DNA of 15,583 nucleotides from Candidatus Vampirococcus lugosii. Lineage in GTDB: Bacteria; Patescibacteriota; Gracilibacteria; Absconditabacterales; Absconditicoccaceae. The notes beneath the pieces were generated by a model that worked only from the letters and a program-made list of their open reading frames with translations, made no database searches and was not told where the DNA came from. Shown here one piece after another: positions 66 to 15,583 of the stretch (position 1 is the stretch's first letter; every line of letters begins with the position of its first letter). The translations under genes and the position numbers were made by a program. The DNA is taken from the NCBI RefSeq assembly GCF_018420025.1, contig NZ_JAEDAM010000019.1, positions 1 through 15,583 on the forward strand. The letters run 5' to 3'.

Positions 66-313
66 ATTATAATTATTACCACTTAAAATAATAAAAGATA
101 AAAAATAATATATTTCATTATAATAAAAAAAATCATAATTTCAAGAGAAAATACAATAATACTCGCCACTACAAAATAAAATATTTTCTGTTTACAAAGA
201 TGAGATTAAACAAAAATAAAATATTTTAAAATTTAAAATAAATTTCTATTGATTTTTAAAAATTAATATGTAATGTATATATACATTTATATTTTAAAAA
301 TAAAAACAAAATA

Positions 314-1576
314 ATGGATTATAAAAAAAATACACAATATGATAACAAAACATTAGATAATGATGATATAGTTAGTTTGAATAATAAATGATTAGCATTA
401 TATGATTCATGAAAATATGAAGAAGCTATTGAATATTATGATAAAGTATTGGAAATAGATCCAAATTATACTACTACTTTGAGTAATAAATGAAGTCTAT
501 TGCAATATTTATGAAGGTATGAGGAAGCTATTGAATCTTATGATAAACTTTTAAAGTTAGAATCTAATAGTACTAATATTTTAAACAATAAATGATTAGC
601 ATTGCATAATTTATGAAGATATGAAGAAGCTATTGAATCTTATGATAAAGCATTAGAAATAACCTCAAATTATGCTATTACTTTAAATAATAAATGACTA
701 GCATTAATCTTTATATGAAGATATGAAGAAGCTATTGAATGTTATGACAAAGTATTAGAAAAAAATCCTAATGATACTAAAGTAATAGTTGATAAAGCAT
801 TAGCATTATATAGATTATGAAGATATGAAGAATCTATTAAATTTCTTGATATAGCATTGGAAATAACTCCTAATGATCAGTCTATATTGGATAAAAAATG
901 AATTGTACTACAAACAATTTTAAATTCTAAAAAAGATAAAGATAGTGCAGAAATTTTTTTGGAAAATATATGTAAAGAACTAAATGTTATAGATGAATGA
1001 TACAAAACCAATAATATAAGTGATATAAAAAGTTCTTATTTTTGAATATTAAGAAAAATTGTTGATAGTAAAATTTATGATTCTTATATATTACAAAAAT
1101 TTTCTTTATCTTATACTTTAGCATATATATTATCAAATGAAAGTGATGAAGCAATTGATATATGGTTACAGCAAAGTGATTATGAATTGCTTAATCAATG
1201 AATGGAGTATATAAAAAAATGACCACTTTCATTATCTGTAAATGATACATTATTGTATAATGAAATATGTTGATATTTGTATTGTTCCAATTTAATTACA
1301 AATCCATTACAAGAAAAACAATCTAGTTTGGAAAACTATATGAGAGTAAATTGTAATTATTTTATTGAAAATGAAGATGATGATAATCTTATTAGGGTTT
1401 TGTGAATGTGGAAATATTTATTAAATAAAATATATAATTCTAATCCTCCAAAAAACACATTATATGATGATTATTTAAAAATAATAGTAGATAAAAAATC
1501 AAAGAAAAAAGAAATGTTTTTTATGAAAGAAATATGTAATTTTTTATTACCTGATAAATGGGAATTACCTAATTAA
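314..1576 (+). CDS. Tetratricopeptide-repeat (TPR) protein, 420 aa
   Basis: ATG 314, TAA 1574-1576. I checked the frame codon by codon; it is open only when TGA is sense. It has five to six 34-aa units with consensus NNKGLALxxLGRYEEAIExYDKALEIxPN, in which both Gly residues are encoded by TGA. The C-terminal ~250 aa are not repetitive. Confidence 0.9.
371..880 (+). repeat. Five tandem 102-bp coding repeats (TPR units), highly similar at the DNA level
   Basis: The string aataaatga recurs at 383, 485, 587 and 689, with degenerate copies at 791 and 893, giving an exact 102-bp period. The core tgaagatatgaagaagctattgaatcttatgataaa is nearly identical between units. Confidence 0.8.
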
Positions 1577-1687
1577 AAAGGAACTAATACTATAAGTGAG
1601 TAGAATTATTTGAAATGTGAAGATATTATTTTCAGAAGCTTAGATGTGCAATTACTTGAAAAGTATCACAAAATATGTATAAAAAAT

Positions 1688-1713
1688 ACTGAAATTAGTT
1701 TTCAGTGTTTTTT
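1688..1713 (+). terminator. Rho-independent terminator downstream of the TPR gene
   Basis: Stem actgaaa (1688-1694) pairs with tttcagt (1700-1706) around a 5-nt loop, followed by gtttttt. Confidence 0.55.
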
Positions 1714-1909
1714 AATCAATAAAAAATAATAATAATCAGAAGATTAGAATAATTTTTTATTGACTTTTATTTAAAAATAATTAGTTATATATTAACTATA
1801 AATTATTTTATATTTTTGTATTTTATTTTTTTAAGTGCTAATAATCATAATATTTTTATTTCCTTTTAAATCTTTTATTTAATCAAGGATTTGGTCTACA
1901 AAATTGAGA

Positions 1910-2035
1910 TTAACGACAAATTGATTGAAAAGCTCTAACTGATGTACATTTATTTTCTTCAGAAATAATATGTAATGAATACGATAAAAAAGATAACAAC
2001 AATATTAATGTAATTATAATAGATAATTTTTGCAT
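1910..2035 (-). CDS. Small hydrophobic peptide, 41 aa (MQKLSIIITLILLLSFLSYSLHIISEENKCTSVRAFQSICR), translationally coupled to the upstream redox gene
   Basis: Its ATG (2035-2033) overlaps the upstream TAA (2037-2035) as TAATG. It has an N-terminal signal/TM-like segment and two Cys in the tail. The ORF is short, so support is weak. Confidence 0.3.
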   Translation of the reverse strand: MQKLSIIITLILLLSFLSYSLHIISEENKCTSVRAFQSICR

Positions 2036-4204: not shown

Positions 4205-6628
4205 ATGTTAATTTTTTTTATTATATTATCTATATTGTTTTTATTTTTTTTCTTTTTGATAAAATATTTAATTTTTCATATGAAGAAAAAAAATATACTA
4301 AAAAAAGCAGATGATATTAGATTTATTCAAGTAAAAATTTCTAGTAATAATTCTGAATGAACTGATCAAACTTCTTCTATGAAACAAAATATTGAAATAA
4401 TGAATCAATTGTACAAAAATTTGTGATCAGTTTATTCTGGAGATTATATGAGTACTAAGTTTGGTCAAAATTTCATAGTATTAGAAATGATTGTAGAAAA
4501 AGAAATGATAAATTATATAATGTGAATTCCTCAAGATTATGTTGAATCATTTGAAAAATTAATTTCATCATTTTATCCTTGATCTGTAGTAGATAAAATT
4601 TCACAAAATAAAATATTAAATGCATGAAATTGTGTTTCTGCTTGAGATATAGTTCTTTCCAAGTCTGATACTTTACCGATCAAAATTTATGATGATTTTG
4701 AAGCTGATCCTATAGATAGTATTTTATCTTCATTTTCAAAAACTAATTGGGATGAAAAATTAATTTTACAATTTGTAATAAGTCCATTATCCGATTGAGA
4801 ACAATCTAATTTTTCAAAAGCAGTAGAAGCTTGTAAGACAAGTAAAAAAAAGTCAATTTTTTGATTAATTAAAAAAATATTTGATTTTAATTCTGATGAA
4901 TGAGAATCAAAGTGAGAAGAAAAAAGTAAATATACATCTTCACAAACACAAGATATAGATAAAAAATGAGAATGAGAATTTTTTAATGTAAAGATTAGAA
5001 CATTAGCAATAAGTCCTGATCAAAATAGAGCAGATAAATTTTTGAGAGATATTCAAAGATCTTTAAGTCAATATAATTATGCATGATTAAATAAATTATC
5101 TGTAAAAAAACCAAAAAATTTAGATGATTTTTTATATAATTTTATTTATAAATCTCCTATTAGTTTACAAACTAATATAAGAAATATTCTCAAAACAGAA
5201 AAAGGTCATATATTTAGTATCAAAGAACTTTCTTCTCTTTATCATTTTCCTCATTCCAAATTTAATAAAAATCCAAGAATTAGATGGCAAAATTTTAAAA
5301 TAGTTCCAGCACCTGATACTATTCCTTCTGATTGATTATATATATGAAATAATTTATATTCTTGAGTTAATAAGAAAATTAGAGTAAAACCGGAAGATAG
5401 ATTTAGACATTTTTATTGTATTGGTCAAACTGGTACTGGTAAATCAACAATGCTTACTGTACAAGCAAAAGATGATTTAATTAATTGAAGATGATTTTGT
5501 ATGATAGATCCTCATGGGGATTTATGTGAAAGTCTTTTATGATATTTTCCCAAAGAAAGAATTAATGATCTTATTTATTTTGATGCAGCAGATTTTCAAA
5601 ATCCTATATGATTAAATGCTTTTGAAGCAGAAAATGAAGAACAAAAAGATGTAGTTGTAAGTGATTTGGTAGATATGTTTGTTAATCTTTATTGACATGA
5701 AATTTTTGGTCCTAGAATTCAAGATTATTTTAGAAATGGTGCATTAACACTTATGGATCAACCTGATTGATGAACTATGGTAGAGATTGTAAGACTTTTT
5801 GCAGATGAAGCTTTCCAAAAAACTAAACTTAAAAATGTAAAAAATCCAGTAGTAAGAAATTGGTGGGAAAAAACTTATGCAGCTATGTGAGATAGAGAAA
5901 AGGCTGAAGCTATTCCTTTTTTTCAAGCTAAATTTGGACAATTTACTACTACTCCTATTTTGAGAAATATAATATGACAAACTGAATCATCTTTCAAAAT
6001 GTCTCAAGTTATGCAAGAAAATAAAGTTTTGTTAGTAAATTTAAGTAAATGAAAATTGTGAGAAATAAATTCTGAACTTATCGGTAGAATTATTACTACA
6101 CAAGTAAAAGTTGCAGCATTACAAAGAGCATCTATGCCTGAAAATGAAAGAATTCCTTTTTATTTGTATATAGATGAATTTCAAAATTATGTAAGTCAAT
6201 CTATAGAAAGTATATTATCTGAAGCAAGAAAATATAAATTATGACTTACTGTAGCTCATCAATATATTGATCAACTTAGATCTCATTGATTATGATGAGA
6301 TTTGGATTTGTCAAAAGCTATTTTTGGTAATGTTTGAAGTATTATGGCATACAAAGTATGACCTGAAGATGCAGAATTTTTGGAAAGAGTTTTTGCACCA
6401 GAATTTAGCAAATCTGATTTGGTAAATATGGATAAATACAAATGAGTTATGAGATTATCTGTAGATAGTCAGCCTACTAAACCTTTTAGTATTGCAACTT
6501 TAAATCCATTTACTCCTTTTATAAATTCTCCTGAAAAAATTAAAGTAATAAAAGAAATTTCTTCTCTTAAATGGGGAAGAAAAAAAGAATTAGTAGAAAA
6601 AGAAATTTATTATAAAGTATGAGTTTAA
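4205..6628 (+). CDS. Membrane-anchored P-loop ATPase of the VirD4/TraG/TraD (type IV secretion coupling protein-like) family, 807 aa
   Basis: ATG 4205, TAA 6626-6628. There is an N-terminal TM segment (MLIFFIILSILFLFFFFLIKYLIF). Motifs are Walker A GQTGTGKST (5423-5449), MIDPHGDL, Walker B FYLYIDEFQNY, and ARKYKLGLTVAHQYIDQL, which is typical of the TraG/TraD C-terminal module. Confidence 0.88.
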
Positions 6629-6652: not shown

Positions 6653-7318
6653 ATGAATTCAACTATTAATTTATCTGAATTATTCTTGGGAACTTGTTTA
6701 CATTTTTTTGTAAATAATTTTTTTGATGAACAAAATGAAAATGAATTATTAAGTGATAATGAAATTTTACAAAAAATAATTGATTGAAATAAAAATATTT
6801 TTTCTTTATTGTTGGATAGATATTCTGATAAAATATATAGATATATTTTTTACCATTTTAATTTTGATAAAAAAATTTCTCAAGATCTTACTCAAGAAGT
6901 TTTTCTTCATGTTTGGAACAAATTAAATAAATTTGATAATGAACAAAAATTTGAACCATGGCTTTATAGATTGGCACATAATTGCTGTATTGATTGGATT
7001 AGGAAAAATAAAAACAATTTAAGTGAAAGTTCTTTGGATAATATTTCGTATGATATATGAGAAGCATTTGATGAGAATGATCTTGAAAATAATTATAAAC
7101 AAAAATTAATTTATCAAATACTTGAAAAATTGGATCATAAATCTAAACATATAATTATATTATCATATTTTGAACAAAAATCTTATGATGAAATTGCATA
7201 TATTATTTGAATATCAAAATGAGCTGTATGAACTAGTCTTACTAGAGCAAGAAATAAATTGAAAGATATCATAAACTCGGATGATGTTTTGAAAGATGCA
7301 CTTAATTTTGATTTATAA
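6653..7318 (+). CDS. ECF-type sigma-70 family RNA polymerase sigma factor, 221 aa
   Basis: ATG 6653, TAA 7316-7318. Region 2 reads DLTQEVFLHVWNKLNKF...FEPWLYRLAHNCCIDWIRK. The region 4 HTH reads SYDEIAYIIGISKGAVGTSLTRARNKLK, with three Gly encoded by TGA. The gene starts 24 nt after the ATPase stop. Confidence 0.9.
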
Positions 7319-8090: not shown

Positions 8091-10847
8091 TTAAGAATTA
8101 AGTATTGAATCGGCTCTTTTGAAAACACTAAATAAAGTTCATATACAAATATCTTTTTTTCACATAGGAACTGGTAATGTAGCATTATTTTCTTTATGTT
8201 TCATAATTCTGTGAGAAGTAGAGTTTTGTCTATCTTCTTCAAAACCAAATTTTTTCAATATTAAAACCATATCATTTGAGGATAAATCTTTTCTGAAATA
8301 TTTCAAAATATTATCATAATCTACTGTATTATCTTGTAATTCATTAGAATTTTTTTCTATTATTTCATCTATTGAAAAATATTTATTAATTCCAAACAAG
8401 AAATTAAATAAATTATGAGATATATTTGATAAATTTTTATTAAGTAAATCTTGATTAATATTTTGTGAACAGAATAAATCTAGTAAAAAATTAATTTTTT
8501 CTTCATCAATAGATTTTATAAAAAAATCAATATTATACAAAGATAAAAAATTTTTAATTATTAAATTATGATTTATAATATTTGATAAAAAATTTATATT
8601 TTTTATATTGACAAAAAAGATATCTAATTTTTCCAAATTTAGATTATTCATAATATTTTCAAAATAATACCAAATTCATCAATTTGAATTATTTTCAGAA
8701 TCTATATATTTCAATAATCATCTATTTTCCAAAAATGATAATATTTGAAAAAAGTTATAATATCAATTATTAATATTATCCAAGTTTTCAATTATAGAAT
8801 GAGTATCAATTTCATAATTTTGTAATATATTATAAATATTTGATATAATAGAATTATTAGTATTATGATTATCAATTGAATATAAAAAATCACTTAAACA
8901 ATTACAATCATCAAAATCATAATTCAATATAAATTCTTCAAAAATGTATTTATTACTAAAATATTTATTTATAAGTAAATTCATATTAATATCATCTATA
9001 TTTGAACGAAAAGCTAACTTATAAAGAACTGAAAATAAAATACTGTAATCGTTTTCATTATTTTCAAAAAAGCTTTTCCAAGTATTAATTTTTATTGAAT
9101 TTTTTCAAAATTTATTTTGTATATATAAATAATCAGAAAGTTTATCTTTTTGGTATTTAAATATTTTGCTTCTATTTTGATATTCATTTTCTATATTGTA
9201 AGAATTTATAATTTTATCAAAATAATTATTAAATTTATTAATATTATTTATAGTTTTGAATATATCGTTTTTATTATTTTCATAATAATCTTTAATTTCA
9301 TATACATATTTATCAACAGTTTTTTTATAAGTTGGATCAAAAAATTCTTCAAAATTTTGTAATTTAGATATATTTCATTTAATTTTCACTATAGCTTGTA
9401 CAAAATTTATAACTTCAGTTTTATTTTGTAGTTCAAATATTTTTTCAACTAAATTTATGTTATATGATAATAAATTTTTGATAAAACATAAATCAGCATC
9501 CAATAATTTAACTATATTATTAAATCATAATCTATTATTAATATTTTTATGTATAAAATCTAAATCCAAAAAATACATAAAATCTAATATATAACTTCAA
9601 TATGAATTAAAAAAATCTTGATTTTGAATCAAAAAATCATAATCAAATTTTTCAAATAAATATTTTTTATCTTCATTTGAAAGTGAATTAAGAAATTGTA
9701 AATTTAATAAAACTTCATCTTTTTTTACAAGTTCTAAAATATCATCTTTATTTAATATATTTCATTTATTATACATTTTATAAAATGATTTAATTTGCAT
9801 ATTTGATATATTTAAATCATTCAAATTTCATATTGAAAATATAATTTCCAAAAATTTTTTATCAAAATTATTTTCATAAAAGAAAATAAAATTAGATTCT
9901 ATATAATCTTTATCATCAAAAAAGGATAATAAATTATTATAATATTTATTTTTATTAAATAAATCTTTTATATAAAAAGAAAATCTATCAAAAAATTCTT
10001 GAGATATATAAAAATCTCTAATTCTTTTCTTTTCATAATTTAAAACGGCAGTAGTAGGACAGTTTTTGTTCCAAGAAATTAAAAAATCACATATATCATT
10101 ATAAATTATTTTTGGTAAAGATAATTTTTTATTAAAAAGATTGTAAAGCTGATCTATTAAAATATTGTTTTTAGTAAAATCTATATTTGAAATAGCAAAA
10201 TAATCTATTATATATAATATATCAATATATTCATATATTCATATTTTATCATTATTTATAAGACATATATCTTTTAGTTCATCTGAAAAATTAGAATAAT
10301 TTCTTAAAAAATTTGGTTTTTTAAATTTGAAAATAAATTTATCATCATTATGTACATTTCTGTATGAAAATGCTAATGTTCTATTCAAAGAAGTTAACCA
10401 ATAACAAAAAGACAAAACAATATCAAATATTTCAGAATTTCATTTGTATCTTATAATATCTTCTTCATAATCAATATCAACTCCAATATTTTCCAAAAGA
10501 TTTAAAAAATCTTTATATTTATTAACAAAAAATTCATAATATTTATCATCAGATTTTAATATATTAAACATATCATTACATACTTCTATCAAATCATCTA
10601 CTCATCATACATTAACCATTTTAGTCATATATCAAAAATTTCTTATAGAATCAAAAAAAATTCAAATATTATTTAAATTTTTTGATTTTAAAAAAGAAAA
10701 AAATTCTTTAATATTTTCATTTTCAATAATATTTTCAACATCATCTCAAACAGCAAGAAACATTTCATGTGCTATTTTTTTTAAATTATCGTTATTATTC
10801 TTTATATTATTGATATTATTTACAGGAATACTATTTTCTAAGCCCAT
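8091..10847 (-). CDS. Large (918 aa) uncharacterised cytoplasmic protein with a complete C-terminal HicA (mRNA interferase toxin) domain
   Basis: ATG 10847-10845 with an in-frame TAA five codons upstream; stop TAA at 8093-8091. I checked every codon on the plus strand for tta/cta and found none. The track ORFs 8160..8651 and 8763..8984 are in-frame fragments of this CDS. The last ~60 aa (MVLILKKFGFEEDRQNSTSHRIMKHKENNATLPVPMGKKDICIGTLFSVFKRADSILNS) match the HicA consensus (...L.k.GF...rq.GSH......vtvP.h..kdl..gtl..ilkqag). Confidence 0.85.
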
Positions 10848-11088: not shown

Positions 11089-11346
11089 ATGGCGGATAAA
11101 GTTTTTTTTGGGAATGTGAAAGAGATGACAAATAATTATTGAACTATGTATAGTATATGAATAACAAAAGAAGATCTAGACAAACTTGTGTTTAATGAAA
11201 AATGATGGGCAAATATAAGTTTAAAAAAATCTAGTAAATGAAATTGGTATATGGAAATATATAATCCTCAAGATAATAATAATACACAAAAAACATCGCA
11301 AACTGAAGTAGTAAATGAAGAAGAGGATGAAGATTTACCTTTCTAA
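11089..11346 (+). CDS. Small (85 aa) beta-rich protein with an SSB-type acidic C-terminal tip (...EEEDEDLPF)
   Basis: ATG 11089, TAA 11344-11346. Sequence: MADKVFFGNVKEMTNNYGTMYSIGITKEDLDKLVFNEKGWANISLKKSSKGNWYMEIYNPQDNNNTQKTSQTEVVNEEEDEDLPF. It has four in-frame TGA codons. The tail matches the bacterial SSB C-terminal tip (D-D-D-I/L-P-F). Confidence 0.75.
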
Positions 11347-11422
11347 AGAGTAGAGTGGGTAATTATAAGAGTGGATTTAAATAAGATAAAAGTAATTAAG
11401 TTTATAAAAAAAGTATTTTGAC

Positions 11423-11450
11423 TTGACAAATTATTAAAAATGTTTATAAA
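11423..11450 (+). promoter_or_regulatory. Sigma-70-type promoter of the GC-enriched RNA island
   Basis: TTGACA (11423-11428, in a tandem ttgacttgaca context), a 16-nt spacer and TATAAA (11445-11450) preceded by TGT. The predicted transcription start is around 11456-11458. Confidence 0.55.
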
Positions 11451-11455
11451 GTAAA

Positions 11456-11818
11456 TCCCTTGTAAGCTTCATATTTGGAGGCAGTCATGTTAAGTATTAG
11501 TCTAAATTCGGTTAATGCCAGAAACAAGGATTTTACTACATTTGTTTATGAGTATCCTTTGGATATTTCTATAGCAAGTATAGAGAAATTCTTGAAATTA
11601 AGGACATTTAGGAAAGTAGAAACTTGCTTTCTTTCAAATGAAGGCAAGCCTTTCTTTTCGGGTGAAAGGATTTTACTTGGCAATGATACAAGTGCAAGGA
11701 TACTAACAGCTATAACGGGAATTTATCCAAAATTAAGGGAGATTCCTATCGTGAAATCTAATCACTAGAATTTCTCATTTTTTCTTTTCTTCCTATGAAT
11801 TTCATAGGAAGTTTTTTT
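11456..11818 (+). ncRNA. Probable structured non-coding RNA of ~360 nt, class unresolved (RNase P RNA considered but not demonstrated)
   Basis: The segment is clearly more GC-rich than the flanking genes and has its own promoter and terminator. Long-range complementarity: 11456-11461/11735-11740, 11474-11479/11726-11731, 11504-11514/11713-11724 and 11551-11559/11696-11704 (9 bp). Local hairpins lie at 11565-11588, 11636-11657 and 11675-11693. The embedded 93-codon ORF has flat GC across codon positions (about 32/38/28 percent by my count), uses AGG for Arg and never uses TGA for Gly, unlike the neighbouring genes. Confidence 0.5.
11789..11818 (+). terminator. Rho-independent terminator
   Basis: Perfect inverted repeat cttcctatgaa (11789-11799) / ttcataggaag (11801-11811), followed by seven T (11812-11818). 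Confidence 0.85.
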
Positions 11819-11859
11819 ATAAAAAAAATATATTAATATTTAATTAATATATTGTCAAA

Positions 11860-11947
11860 CGGTGAGGATGGGATTCGAACCCATGGTACAAATAAATTGT
11901 ACACATGTACTCCAAACATGCGCTTTCGACCACTCAGCCACCTCACC
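11860..11947 (-). tRNA. tRNA-Ser (anticodon GGA), class II with a long variable arm; no encoded CCA
   Basis: The reverse complement is GGTGAGGTGGCTGAGTGGTCGAAAGCGCATGTTTGGAGTACATGTGTACAATTTATTTGTACCATGGGTTCGAATCCCATCCTCACCG. The acceptor stem is GGTGAGG/CCTCACC. The anticodon stem is CATGT/ACATG with loop TTGGAGT. The variable arm has a 6-bp stem. The T arm is ATGGG-TTCGAAT-CCCAT. The discriminator is G, followed by TTT. Confidence 0.95.
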
Positions 11948-14685: not shown

Positions 14686-15583
14686 ATGAAAACAAAAATA
14701 AAAAAAATATTTGGAGTGCTTTTTGTTGTTTTATTGCTTTTGATTTGATGAATTACTAAAGCAGATAAACATTTTGTTAGTTGTGATTTGGAGTTCAAAA
14801 TAGGAGATAATATAATATATGAAAATAATAATTCGCAGAAAGTTTTTAGATTTAATACTAAAGGTTCTTTGTTATTTTATACTGATCCAGCAAATATTTA
14901 TTTTGGTTTGGATAATTATACTGGGCTATGATATAATTCATTGTATGTAAATAGAAAATCTTGACAAGATGGGATTAGAGATGTTTCGCCTGAAATACAT
15001 AGATCATCTTTGCCAAATAATTGACTTGAATTTGTAAATACAAGTGGTGATAAGACAATATTATGGTGAGATGATGGTGCTTTAAATTCTAATAGATTTA
15101 TTGCTTATGATGGATTTCAAGCTGGTTGCTCTGATTCTGGTTGGAAAAATGAATTAACTAATAATTGGAATAGATATGATTATACAAATGATCCTGGGAC
15201 TTTTTATCCACAACCACTATGTTGAAATGAAAATGGTAAAGTTTATGCTTGGAATGAAACAAGTTGGGATACACAAGATTTTTGTACAGAAGGAACAGTA
15301 AATCCATCAAATCCAATTTTCCCTGATGAAGGAGAGACTAGGGCATGGACTTGTACCGCTCCTTCTCATAGTCCAGTAACTTGTAGTGCAAGGAGAGAGA
15401 CTGAATCACCTAATGATTGTACAGGTCCAGATTGAGCTATTATTGCTCATGGTGATAGTAGAACTTATTATAAAAATACTGTAGTAGATGGTGAAGAAGA
15501 TGATAATGCTTGTGTATTTGGTGAGTCCACCTTTCCTTGTATTATAGATGGAACAGGTGCAACTGGGGAAAATAATGTTTGTG
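14686..15583 (+). CDS. Secreted cysteine-rich protein, 3'-truncated by the window edge (299 codons visible)
   Basis: ATG 14686; I checked the frame codon by codon to the window end. The signal peptide is MKTKIKKIFGVLFVVLLLLIGGITKA. There are many Cys and W/N/D/T-rich segments (e.g. ETRAWTCTAPSHSPVTCSARRE). The gene is more GC-rich and uses GGN for Gly more than its neighbours do. Confidence 0.85.

What the first reader, a model, noticed from the sequence alone, without database searches (positions are those of the whole stretch)
11347..11830. GC-enriched transcription unit of ~360 nt with its own promoter and terminator: probable unclassified structured RNA
A TTGACA-16-TATAAA promoter and a perfect 11-nt inverted-repeat terminator with a T7 tract bracket a segment much more GC-rich than the surrounding genes. 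It contains nested long-range helices, including a 9-bp pairing AGUAUCCUU/AAGGAUACU (11551-11559/11696-11704) and AAAUUCGGUUA/UAACGGGAAUUU (11504-11514/11713-11724). It also contains several local hairpins. A few strings resemble RNase P RNA conserved regions: AGGAAAGU at 11610-11617, GGGUGAAAGG at 11660-11669, GUGCAAGG at 11692-11699 and ACAG at 11706-11709. However, I could not build the canonical P4 pseudoknot or find GAGGAAAGUCC, and the order and spacing are wrong for type A or B. It also lacks tmRNA, SRP and 6S hallmarks. The region carries a 93-codon ORF preceded by GGAGG (11477-11481), which is a puzzle. No other gene in the window has a Shine-Dalgarno sequence. The ORF's codon-position GC is flat and its codon usage differs from its neighbours (AGG for Arg, GGN only for Gly). 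The unit sits between the SSB-tip gene and a convergent tRNA-Ser.
Basis: partly seen in the sequence, partly recalled or inferred. Interest (0 to 1): 0.75.

Follow-up and report, generated by a model that had tools for sequence, protein, structure and literature searches.

The report
Small protein gene with folded mRNA
The GC-rich unit is not a new non-coding RNA but an unannotated gene for a 93-residue protein of unknown function in the predatory bacterium Vampirococcus lugosii; it is odd because its mRNA is unusually tightly folded and it carries a ribosome-binding motif and codon choices that its host genome otherwise does not use.

Summary
The observed features are real: promoter, hairpin+T7 terminator, GC island (34% vs 20.7%), lone GGAGG, odd codon usage, and strong folding (z -4.2 to -5.0; window background -0.4 +/- 1.3). 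The window is a Ca. Vampirococcus lugosii contig (Absconditabacteria, code 25, TGA=Gly).

The non-coding-RNA reading fails. Rfam finds only the neighbouring tRNA. An exhaustive protein search found one homologue (43% identity, E 1e-12) in another code-25 genome, with the same promoter-leader-GGAGG-ORF-terminator layout. Between the two, third codon positions differ most (0.39/0.39/0.67), 21 of 37 identical residues use different codons, indels are whole codons, and pN 0.40 < pS 0.78. The RNase-P-like strings are codons and are not conserved. The two mRNAs share no base pairs and show no excess covariation.

One thing remains unusual. Both mRNAs fold far better than synonymous-codon permutations (z -4.4, -3.8; six controls -1.6 to +1.4). 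Both avoid TGA-Gly (0/4, 0/8) and carry (A)GGAGG in genomes with almost no SD.

Verdict: an orphan small-protein gene with a selected, compact mRNA. Protein function and the reason for the atypical signals are unresolved.

The parts
11423..11428 (+). -35 box TTGACA
   Evidence: Aligned with TTGACT in the homologue's promoter.
11445..11450 (+). -10 box TATAAA (16-nt spacer). The inferred transcription start is about 11457.
   Evidence: Aligned with TATAAG in the homologue. The start site is inferred, not measured.
11453..11460 (+). Leader motif AAATCCCT at or near the 5' end of the transcript
   Evidence: Shared with the homologue (AAATCCTT) and with the leader of an unrelated 83-aa gene of Absconditicoccus praedator, L003:4631.
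11466..11482 (+). Leader hairpin GCUUC-N7-GAGGC, which holds most of the GGAGG motif in its 3' arm
   Evidence: The homologue has ACACC-AGGA-GGUGU at the same place. On its own the hairpin is not more stable than shuffles (z +0.2).
11477..11481 (+). Shine-Dalgarno-like GGAGG, 5 nt before the ATG
   Evidence: It is the only such motif before any of the 16 gene starts in the window. It is conserved as AGGAGG in the homologue.
11487..11768 (+). Coding sequence of a 93-residue protein (ATG to TAG), a new orphan family with a predicted beta-alpha-beta-beta-alpha-beta fold
   Evidence: Homologue P0052. Coding signature. AF2 on the two-sequence alignment gives pLDDT 68.7 and pTM 0.61. The ATG start is preferred over the TTG at 11475 because GUCAUG aligns with the homologue's start.
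11550..11568 (+). Internal mRNA hairpin (GAGUAUCC-UUU-GGAUAUUU) over codons 22-28
   Evidence: The homologue has a different hairpin 4-5 nt away in the alignment.
11623..11648 (+). Internal mRNA hairpin (CUUGCUUUC-N8-GAAGGCAAG) over codons 46-54
   Evidence: The homologue has a hairpin at the same site but in a shifted register.
11649..11669 (+). Internal mRNA hairpin (CCUUUC-N9-GAAAGG).
11789..11818 (+). Intrinsic terminator: 10-bp stem, 3-nt loop, T7
   Evidence: (z -3.7). The homologue has a 13-bp stem plus T8 at the equivalent place.

Best explanation
The unit is a monocistronic protein-coding gene. It appears to be unannotated in the published Ca. Vampirococcus lugosii genome (Absconditabacteria, genetic code 25).

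A sigma-70-type promoter starts an mRNA of about 360 nt. The mRNA has a leader of about 30 nt, a 93-codon ORF (11487-11768) and an intrinsic terminator. The product is a small soluble alpha/beta protein of a new, lineage-restricted family. Only two members are known, both in TGA=Gly genomes. The biochemical function is unknown.

What is special is the message. In both members the mRNA is far more base-paired than its composition, its protein sequence or its codon usage require. I infer that selection acts on synonymous sites for a compact fold. That selection would raise GC at all three codon positions and favour AGG over AGA and GGN over TGA. It would also bury the start codon in long-range helices, with the GGAGG partly held in a leader hairpin. 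The result would be a long-lived message that is translated poorly until it is unfolded.

Shown: the coding signature, the conserved gene architecture, the excess folding in both members, and the absence of a shared base-pair pattern.

Inferred: that the folding serves stability or translational gating, that the GGAGG acts in translation at all, and the exact transcript ends.
For: Organism and code:
- TGA is the main Gly codon in all neighbouring genes.
- The GreA protein of this contig is named as V. lugosii by NCBI.

Coding evidence:
- One homologue among 1.84 billion cluster representatives (43% identity, E 1.2e-12; BLASTP 41% identity, 61% positives).
- Mismatch fraction by codon position is 0.386/0.386/0.67.
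- 21 of 37 identical residues use different codons.
- Indels are whole codons.
- Frame-0 identity is 42%, against 20-24% in the other frames, which also contain stops.
- pN 0.40 vs pS 0.78.
- A stop-free run of 100 codons is unlikely by chance (p 0.027 under code 25, 0.005 under the standard code).
- The homology is weak at the DNA level: nhmmer finds it at E 6e-11 and blastn finds nothing significant.

Shared architecture:
- -35 box, -10 box, AAATCCYT, (A)GGAGG, GUCAUG start, ORF, and a terminator hairpin with a T-run.

Folding:
- Dinucleotide-shuffle z is -5.0 for the window ORF and -5.4 for the homologue's ORF. The full homologue transcript gives -7.4.
- Synonymous-codon permutation gives z -4.38 and -3.83 (0 of 200 permutations as stable in each). 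Six control genes from the window give -1.6 to +1.4.
- The + strand folds better than the - strand, with 10-12 G-U pairs per fold.
- The start codon has P(unpaired) of 0.01 and 0.16.

Lineage-native signals:
- The same leader motif precedes an unrelated, normally composed gene of A. praedator.
- No relatives were found outside code-25 genomes in any collection.
Against: - Only two family members exist, so all comparative statistics rest on one pair.
- The helices are not conserved base pair for base pair (0 of about 90 shared). Compensatory changes do not exceed shuffles (8 vs 8.1 +/- 2.8). 'Selection for folding' therefore rests on within-sequence permutation tests only.
- Those tests may be somewhat biased in genes with locally uneven GC. 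Two other GC-richer genes of A. praedator give z -1.8 and -2.5.
- Low start-codon accessibility is not unique: three control genes have P(unpaired) of 0.03-0.13.
- Folding selection does not obviously explain a canonical GGAGG at SD spacing. The lineage is reported to have 2-7% SD genes and no conserved CCUCC anti-SD (PMC10783764).
- There is no expression data.
- The protein fold prediction is only moderate (pLDDT 68.7) and has no significant structural match.
Confidence: 0.6

Rival explanations
1. Foreign-composition gene. ORF93 and its homologue were acquired from a donor that uses the standard code and Shine-Dalgarno initiation and has higher GC. The donor could be an unsampled phage, plasmid or bacterium. 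The GC excess, the GGAGG, the absence of TGA codons and the AGG/GGN usage would then be donor traits not yet ameliorated. The mRNA folding would be a donor-family trait or incidental.
For: - The gene is a compositional outlier in both hosts: GC3 0.28 vs 0.07-0.17, and 0.53 vs 0.11-0.17.
- TGA-Gly use is 0 of 4 and 0 of 8 where the host genes would predict P = 0.008 and 3e-7.
- The homologue's ORF ends at TGA, exactly where the alignment ends.
- Genomic context differs between the two genomes, and the gene is absent from the syntenic GreA loci of four relatives.
- The window's left side has mobile-element-like genes: a TraG/VirD4-like ATPase and a protein with a HicA domain.
- Two other orphan A. 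praedator genes combine an SD-like leader, higher GC and few or no TGA codons.
- The V. lugosii paper reports 126 HGT genes (PMC8080830).
Against: - No relative exists outside code-25 genomes among about 15 billion proteins, phages, plasmids, IMG/VR or JGI metagenomes.
- The two copies are only 42% identical and differ strongly in GC. That means either two independent acquisitions from an invisible donor family, or long residence without amelioration.
- The leader motif is shared with a normally composed native gene.
- There is no att-like repeat of the tRNA end and no flanking direct repeats.
- Donor composition does not explain the synonymous-permutation result.
Confidence: 0.22
2. Dual-function RNA. 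The transcript is both an mRNA and a structured regulatory or scaffold RNA, and the RNA function explains the nucleotide-level constraint.
For: Strong, strand-specific folding in both members that exceeds synonymous permutations. Hairpins recur at roughly the same alignment positions. The alifold energy gives z -4.7 against column shuffles.
Against: - No exactly shared base pair and no excess compensatory pairs.
- Synonymous sites are saturated (pS 0.78), so the primary sequence is not conserved as in known riboregulators.
- The ORF fills about 78% of the transcript.
- No Rfam match in either locus.
Confidence: 0.08
3. One reading: a free-standing, unclassified structured non-coding RNA (possibly RNase-P-like) that happens to contain an open frame.
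For: GC island, own promoter and terminator, fold z -4 to -5. Short strings resembling RNase P CR-I, CR-II and CR-III. The ORF is not present in the NCBI protein set for this contig.
Against: - All the coding evidence.
- No RNase P, tmRNA, SRP or 6S match even at E <= 10 on a 600-nt search, and none in the homologue.
- The RNase-P-like strings are not conserved in the homologue.
- No covariation.
Confidence: 0.03
4. Cross-code expression cassette. The gene is built to be read by a standard-code, SD-dependent translation system, either the prey cell or a second host of a shuttling mobile element, rather than by the code-25, SD-poor producer. This would be analogous to T-DNA genes carrying the recipient's expression signals (analogy from my own knowledge).
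For: - Canonical sigma-70 promoter, (A)GGAGG at ideal spacing, no in-frame TGA in either member, and stop codons readable in both codes (TAG; TGA).
- The lineage is reported to lack the anti-SD core.
- V. lugosii is an epibiotic predator (PMC8080830).
- A TraG/VirD4-like coupling ATPase and a protein with an SSB-type acidic tip lie nearby in the window.
Against: - There is no evidence of nucleic-acid export.
- The homologue's neighbourhood has no such transfer genes.
- The window copy's codon usage (ATA, AGG, TTA) would be poor in a high-GC prey (my own inference).
- A similar leader precedes a normal native gene that does use TGA.
- Simpler explanations cover the same facts.
Confidence: 0.04

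Closest known systems
Ordinary monocistronic small-protein gene of the Firmicutes type (sigma-70 promoter, GGAGG Shine-Dalgarno, intrinsic terminator)
   Same: Exactly this architecture: -35/-10 boxes, a leader of about 30 nt, GGAGG 5-7 nt before the ATG, a 90-93-codon ORF, and a hairpin with a T-run.
   Different: It sits in code-25, 20-25% GC genomes where no neighbouring gene has an SD and where the anti-SD core is reported to be missing. Its composition and codon usage are outliers. The protein family is new.
Compactly folded, stable mRNAs of type I toxin-antitoxin systems (hok/mok-type fold-back mRNAs; comparison from my own knowledge)
   Same: A short monocistronic mRNA folded nearly end to end. 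The start region is paired by long-range helices. In the homologue it pairs with the 3' UTR just after the stop codon.
   Different: The product is a 93-residue soluble alpha/beta protein, not a small hydrophobic peptide. No antisense RNA gene was identified. The closing helix is not conserved between the two members. PADLOC finds nothing.
Dual-function RNAs such as RNAIII/hld, SR1/SR1P and SgrS/SgrT (from my own knowledge)
   Same: A structured RNA that also encodes a protein.
   Different: Here the ORF fills most of the transcript and is the conserved part. The RNA helices do not covary.
Bacterial RNase P RNA (Rfam RF00010/RF00011)
   Same: Similar length (about 360 nt), a GC island in an AT-rich genome, and a few short strings resembling CR-I, CR-II and CR-III.
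   Different: No covariance-model match even at E <= 10. No P4 pairing could be built. The strings are codons and change in the homologue.
rpsU (bS21) of Flavobacteriia: a rare strong-SD gene in an SD-poor lineage, proposed to be autoregulated through anti-SD availability (from my own knowledge, not checked here)
   Same: A lone canonical SD in a lineage that otherwise hardly uses SD.
   Different: ORF93 is not bS21-like: its net charge is about +3 and its predicted fold is alpha/beta. Absconditabacteria are reported to lack bS21 (PMC9297842) and the CCUCC core, so the same mechanism cannot simply be assumed.

Membership tests
Protein-coding gene | Open frame maintained in homologues, with indels in multiples of three | tested here: met
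   Both members are open over 90-93 codons. The two indels are 2 codons each. The other frames carry stops.
Protein-coding gene | Codon-periodic, synonymous-biased substitution and significant protein-level similarity | tested here: met
   Mismatch fractions 0.386/0.386/0.67. 21 of 37 identical residues use different codons. pN 0.40 < pS 0.78. phmmer E 1.2e-12 against 1.84 billion proteins. Only one pair is available.
Protein-coding gene | Evidence of translation (peptides, ribosome footprints) | not testable with these tools
   No expression data can be reached from here.
RNase P RNA (bacterial type A/B) | Match to the Rfam covariance models RF00010/RF00011 | tested here: not met
   No match at gathering score or at E <= 10 on 11300-11900. 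None in the homologous locus.
RNase P RNA (bacterial type A/B) | Conserved regions CR-I to CR-V kept in relatives, and the P4 pseudoknot | tested here: not met
   The look-alike strings AGGAAAGU, GGGUGAAAGG and GUGCAAGG correspond to AGGAAUGC, UGUGGUGAUU and UCAGCCAGG in the homologue (codon alignment). No P4 pairing appears in the folds.
tmRNA / SRP RNA / 6S RNA | Match to the Rfam models; tRNA-like ends, domain IV, or a long hairpin with a central bubble | tested here: not met
   No matches. ARAGORN finds only tRNA-Ser. The only tmRNA 'hit' is the T-arm of that tRNA.
Conserved structured RNA (ncRNA or dual-function RNA) | Homologous helices supported by compensatory base changes | tested here: not met
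   0 of about 90 MFE pairs are shared. Consensus pairs changed on both sides number 8, against 8.1 +/- 2.8 in column shuffles (114 of 200 shuffles reach the observed value). Power is limited to two sequences.
Conserved structured RNA (ncRNA or dual-function RNA) | Thermodynamic stability beyond what composition explains | tested here: met
   z -5.0 and -5.4 by dinucleotide shuffles; -4.4 and -3.8 by synonymous permutation.
Type I toxin mRNA (hok-like) | Small hydrophobic membrane peptide as the product | tested here: not met
   A 93-residue protein with mixed charge, a predicted beta-alpha-beta-beta-alpha-beta fold and no hydrophobic helix.
Type I toxin mRNA (hok-like) | Cis-encoded antisense RNA and a conserved 5'-3' fold-back | tested here: inconclusive
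   A minus-strand promoter-like site at 11858-11830 exists, but such sites are at chance frequency. Start-region pairing is present in both members but with different partners.
Shine-Dalgarno-led gene | GGAGG-type motif 4-9 nt upstream of the start codon | tested here: met
   GGAGG-N5-ATG in the window and AGGAGG-N7-ATG in the homologue.
Shine-Dalgarno-led gene | Complementary anti-SD (CCUCC) at the 3' end of the organism's 16S rRNA | not testable with these tools
   The 16S gene is not in the window or in any fetched locus. The literature lists two SR1/Absconditabacteria genomes as lacking a conserved CCUCC, with 2-7% SD genes (PMC10783764).
Ferredoxin-like alpha/beta plait proteins (ACT, RRM, CutA-like) | Significant structural or profile similarity to a member | tested here: inconclusive

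The most novel reading that the evidence does not exclude
ORF93 and its homologue may exemplify a class of genes in TGA=Gly, SD-poor bacteria that are deliberately 'code-neutral'. They have no in-frame TGA, a canonical SD and sigma-70 signals, and a nuclease-resistant folded mRNA. They could therefore be expressed by a standard-code translation system, either in the prey cell of this epibiotic predator or in an alternative host of a shuttling mobile element. The nearest known parallel is T-DNA genes carrying the recipient's expression signals.
Probability: 0.05. Interest if true: 0.9.

Novelty: new member of a known kind. Interest (0 to 1): 0.4.

Why it matters
The finding removes a false lead: this is not a new ribozyme or RNase P variant in the Candidate Phyla Radiation. 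It adds a missed gene to the V. lugosii genome.

It also exposes something worth a genome-wide look. Stop-codon-reassigned, SD-poor Absconditabacteria contain a few orphan genes that carry a canonical SD, avoid the reassigned codon, are GC-enriched and, in this family, have mRNAs under apparent selection for compact folding.

Whether this marks foreign origin, a special translation or stability regime, or something more exotic bears on two questions. One is how translation initiation works in lineages said to lack the anti-SD. The other is how genes move across a genetic-code boundary.

Tried and rejected
- Rfam, at gathering thresholds and at permissive E-values, on the window and on the homologous locus. 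It found only tRNA-Ser and chance-level hits.
- RNase P, tmRNA, SRP and 6S identity: rejected.
- Table 11 and table 4 translation: rejected in favour of code 25.
- The Logan contigs L001/L002 as an independent comparison: they are the same organism (99.99% nucleotide identity). The '92% GreA' figure was TGA translated as Trp.
- Synteny-based comparison through GreA loci of four relatives (L003-L006): the element and the tRNA-Ser are absent there.
- DNA similarity to phages and plasmids: only chance hits of 30-40 nt.
- Protein- and pattern-based scans of IMG/VR and JGI metagenomes: nothing. The GTDB genomes yielded only the organism that also carries L007.
- Pfam, PHROGs, NCBIfam, PADLOC and PDB sequence search: nothing.
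- AF2 from a single sequence: uninformative (pLDDT 49.6).
- The 83-aa A. praedator ORF with a similar leader as a third family member: rejected. It is Lys/Glu-rich, 21% GC, uses TGA and does not align.
- Integration at the tRNA: no att-like repeat of the tRNA-Ser 3' end and no flanking direct repeats.
Full report
**1. What organism and code**

The window is 20.7% GC, and under table 11 it shows only short ORFs. Treating TGA as a sense codon restores long genes. The TGA positions fall where glycine is expected, for example in GreA and in the ferredoxin-reductase-like protein. TGA is the dominant Gly codon in every neighbouring gene. The GreA protein of this contig is in NCBI as Candidatus Vampirococcus lugosii, on a contig of exactly 15,583 bp. 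The window is therefore a contig of this Absconditabacteria (CPR) epibiotic predator, which uses genetic code 25 (PMC8080830).

**2. The observation**

- Promoter: TTGACA-16-TATAAA at 11423-11450.
- Terminator: 10-bp stem, 3-nt loop and T7 at 11789-11818. Terminator-like sites number 3 where 0.2 are expected, and the hairpin has z -3.7.
- GC island: 0.335-0.34 against 0.11-0.27 nearby.
- ORF: 93 codons at 11487-11768, preceded by GGAGG at 11477-11481.
- Codon usage: flat codon-position GC (0.32/0.37/0.29), AGG for 5 of 6 Arg, GGN for 4 of 4 Gly, while neighbours have GC3 of 0.07-0.17 and mostly TGA-Gly.
- Shine-Dalgarno: none of the other 15 gene starts has any SD-like motif; their upstream regions are pure A/T.

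The named long-range complements exist, but a single 9-mer complement is about what chance gives and is not used in the MFE fold. The global folding signal, however, is real. The transcript gives z -4.2 on the + strand. The ORF interior gives z -5.0 on the + strand and -2.1 on the - strand. The background over 110 windows of the same contig is -0.4 +/- 1.3, and only the tRNA/terminator window is stronger.

**3. Not a known RNA**

Rfam at gathering thresholds finds only the convergent tRNA-Ser(GGA). A permissive scan of 11300-11900 (E <= 10) gives only chance-level hits and nothing from RNase P, SRP or 6S. The only tmRNA match is the T-arm of the tRNA.

**4. It is a protein gene**

The word-indexed protein search found only the ORF itself. 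The exhaustive HMMER search of 1.84 billion cluster representatives found one relative, P0052 (90 aa, 43% identity, E 1.2e-12). BLASTP gives 41% identity and 61% positives.

P0052 lies on a 641-bp ENA contig (L007). That contig is contained at 100% identity in a 58-kb GTDB MAG contig (L008). The MAG is also about 25% GC and code 25: TGA sits at the conserved VGGxIRD glycines of its CCA-adding enzyme. That enzyme is 62% identical to, and syntenic with, the one in an Absconditabacteria relative.

The codon alignment of the two genes gives these results:
- Mismatch fractions of 0.386/0.386/0.67 at codon positions 1/2/3.
- 21 of 37 identical residues encoded by different codons.
- Both indels are whole codons.
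- 42% identity in frame 0, against 20-24% with stop codons in the other frames.
- pN 0.40 against a saturated pS of 0.78.
- At the DNA level the homology is only weakly visible: blastn finds nothing significant and nhmmer gives E 6e-11.

A stop-free run of 100 codons in this composition has p of about 0.03 under code 25 and 0.005 under the standard code. The RNase-P-like strings turn out to be the codons R-K-V, G-E-R and S-A-R, and they are not conserved as nucleotides in the homologue.

**5. Shared gene architecture**

Both loci have the same layout:
- A TTGAC(A/T) -35 box, a 16-17-nt spacer and a TATAA(A/G) -10 box.
- A leader beginning AAATCC(C/T)T.
- (A)GGAGG 5-7 nt before a conserved GUCAUG start.
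- A 90-93-codon ORF.
- A strong hairpin followed by T7 or T8.

In both leaders the GGAGG lies partly in the 3' arm of a small hairpin: GCUUC/GAGGC in the window and ACACC/GGUGU in the homologue. In both, the start codon is mostly paired by long-range helices, with P(unpaired) of 0.01 and 0.16. Some control genes are equally low, however.

**6. The unusual part: the mRNA**

The homologue's ORF is as over-folded as the window's. It gives z -5.4 on the + strand and -3.6 on the - strand, and the full transcript gives z -7.4.

Permuting synonymous codons keeps the protein and the codon usage fixed. Under this test the native sequences are still far more stable: z -4.38 and -3.83, with 0 of 200 permutations as stable in each. 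Six control genes of the window range from -1.6 to +1.4.

Yet the two folds share no base pair (0 of about 90). Hairpins recur at roughly the same alignment positions but in shifted registers. The consensus structure has no more compensatory pairs than column-shuffled alignments (8 vs 8.1 +/- 2.8).

I read this as selection for a compact message in general, not for one specific RNA architecture. Such selection would also explain three things: the GC excess at all three codon positions, the AGG and GGN preferences, and part of the TGA avoidance. TGA use is 0 of 4 and 0 of 8 Gly codons, where host usage predicts P = 0.008 and 3e-7.

**7. What stays unexplained**

The canonical (A)GGAGG is conserved in two genomes where SD-like motifs are otherwise almost absent: 1 of 16, 1 of 6, 2 of 17 and 1 of 17 gene starts. 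Published analysis lists SR1/Absconditabacteria genomes with 2-7% SD genes and no conserved CCUCC in 16S rRNA (PMC10783764). I could not reach the V. lugosii 16S gene.

The leader motif AAATCCCT...TTTGAGGCAG.GCATG also precedes an unrelated, normally composed 83-aa gene of Absconditicoccus praedator. This argues that the leader is native to the lineage.

Two other orphan genes of A. praedator combine an SD-like leader, raised GC and few or no TGA codons. Their folding signals are weaker or absent: synonymous-permutation z of -2.5 and -1.8, and dinucleotide-shuffle z of -3.3 and -0.9. ORF93 may therefore belong to a wider class of atypical genes. Foreign origin, a special expression regime and an exotic cross-code role are the candidate reasons.

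Foreign origin is weakened by the total absence of relatives outside code-25 genomes. It is also weakened by the absence of insertion scars. It is supported by two things. The two copies sit in different genomic contexts. The gene is absent from the syntenic loci of four relatives.

**8. The protein**

Pfam, PHROGs, NCBIfam, PADLOC and PDB sequence searches find nothing. AlphaFold2 on the two-sequence alignment gives a moderate model (pLDDT 68.7, pTM 0.61). It has an N-terminal helix followed by beta-alpha-beta-beta-alpha-beta, a ferredoxin-like plait. Foldseek finds only weak generic hits to CutA, ACT and RRM-type domains (E >= 0.16, TM <= 0.41). The most conserved block is I-L-x-G-N-D-x-S-A-R...I-T-G-I-x-P. 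Function is unknown.

The ORF appears only in Logan-derived gene calls and not among the NCBI proteins of this contig. It therefore seems to be unannotated in the published genome.

**9. Verdict**

The unit is a small orphan protein gene with a compact mRNA that is apparently under selection, and with expression signals atypical for its host. My confidence that it is protein-coding is about 0.9. My confidence in the full explanation, including selected folding that stabilises or gates the message, is about 0.6. Interest is moderate. The ribozyme lead is closed, but the combination of SD, TGA avoidance and folding in a recoded, SD-poor lineage deserves a genome-wide follow-up.

Noticed in passing
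window 11089-11346 (+): The upstream 'SSB-tip gene' encodes only 85 residues and ends in EEDEDLPF, the acidic tip typical of SSB. It has no Pfam SSB/OB-fold match, or any other Pfam match. It may be a short SSB-tip-bearing protein or a mimic rather than a true SSB.
   Followed up: partly
window 11453-11489; L008 5964-5997; L003 4631-4656: A leader motif, AAATCC(C/T)T ... (G)GAGG(CAG) ... ATG, lies just after a -10 box. It is shared by ORF93, by its homologue and by an unrelated, normally composed 83-aa Lys/Glu-rich gene of Absconditicoccus praedator. This may be a lineage-specific leader or translation signal.
   Followed up: partly
L003 1876-2403 and L003 19333-19806 (the latter also at L006 9852-10325): Two orphan genes of A. 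praedator with SD-like leaders are GC-enriched (0.35 and 0.32) and nearly free of TGA-Gly (0 of 12 and 2 of 15). One has a canonical TTGACT-17-TATACT promoter with GGAGG-N9-ATG and a fold z of -3.3. This hints at a class of genes in code-25 genomes that carry an SD and avoid TGA.
   Followed up: partly
window 4280-6628 (+), 6653-7318 (+), 8091-10847 (-): The left side of the window looks like a mobile element or defence region. It holds a TraG/VirD4/HerA-like ATPase (weak DUF87, TraG-D_C and TrwB hits; DUF8128), an ECF-type sigma factor, and a 918-residue protein with a C-terminal HicA-toxin domain. None of this block is present at the syntenic GreA locus of four relatives.
   Followed up: partly
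window 311-1576 (+), repeats at 373-984: A TPR protein gene contains five tandem 102-nt (34-residue) repeats. All 16 of its Gly codons are TGA.
   Followed up: no
window 14686-15582 (+): A Cys-rich protein with a signal-peptide-like N-terminus runs off the contig end. It has unusually high GC2 (0.43) and mostly GGN glycine codons (22 of 30), unlike its neighbours.
   Followed up: no
window 1681-1960 and 6161-6440: These are the only other windows with fold z near -3. The first is the convergent intergenic region between the TPR and ferric-reductase genes (+ -3.0, - -2.5). The second lies inside the 3' part of the ATPase gene (- strand -3.1). They were not examined further.
   Followed up: no
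L007 571-603 (= L008 6265-6297): The homologue's ORF ends at TGA exactly where the protein alignment ends. Under code 25 it would read on for 9 more unconserved codons to a TAG inside the terminator stem. Which stop is used in vivo is unknown.
   Followed up: partly
window 11830-11858 (-): A TTGACA-17-TAATAT promoter-like site lies on the minus strand just downstream of tRNA-Ser. It would drive antisense transcription through the terminator into ORF93. Such matches occur at chance frequency in this AT-rich DNA.
   Followed up: no
L008 (CAZACQ010000003.1): The GTDB/NCBI record is titled 'Candidatus Peribacteria bacterium', but the contig clearly uses TGA as glycine. It is syntenic with, and about 62% identical in its CCA-adding enzyme to, an Absconditabacteria-like relative. 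The label may therefore be imprecise.
   Followed up: partly
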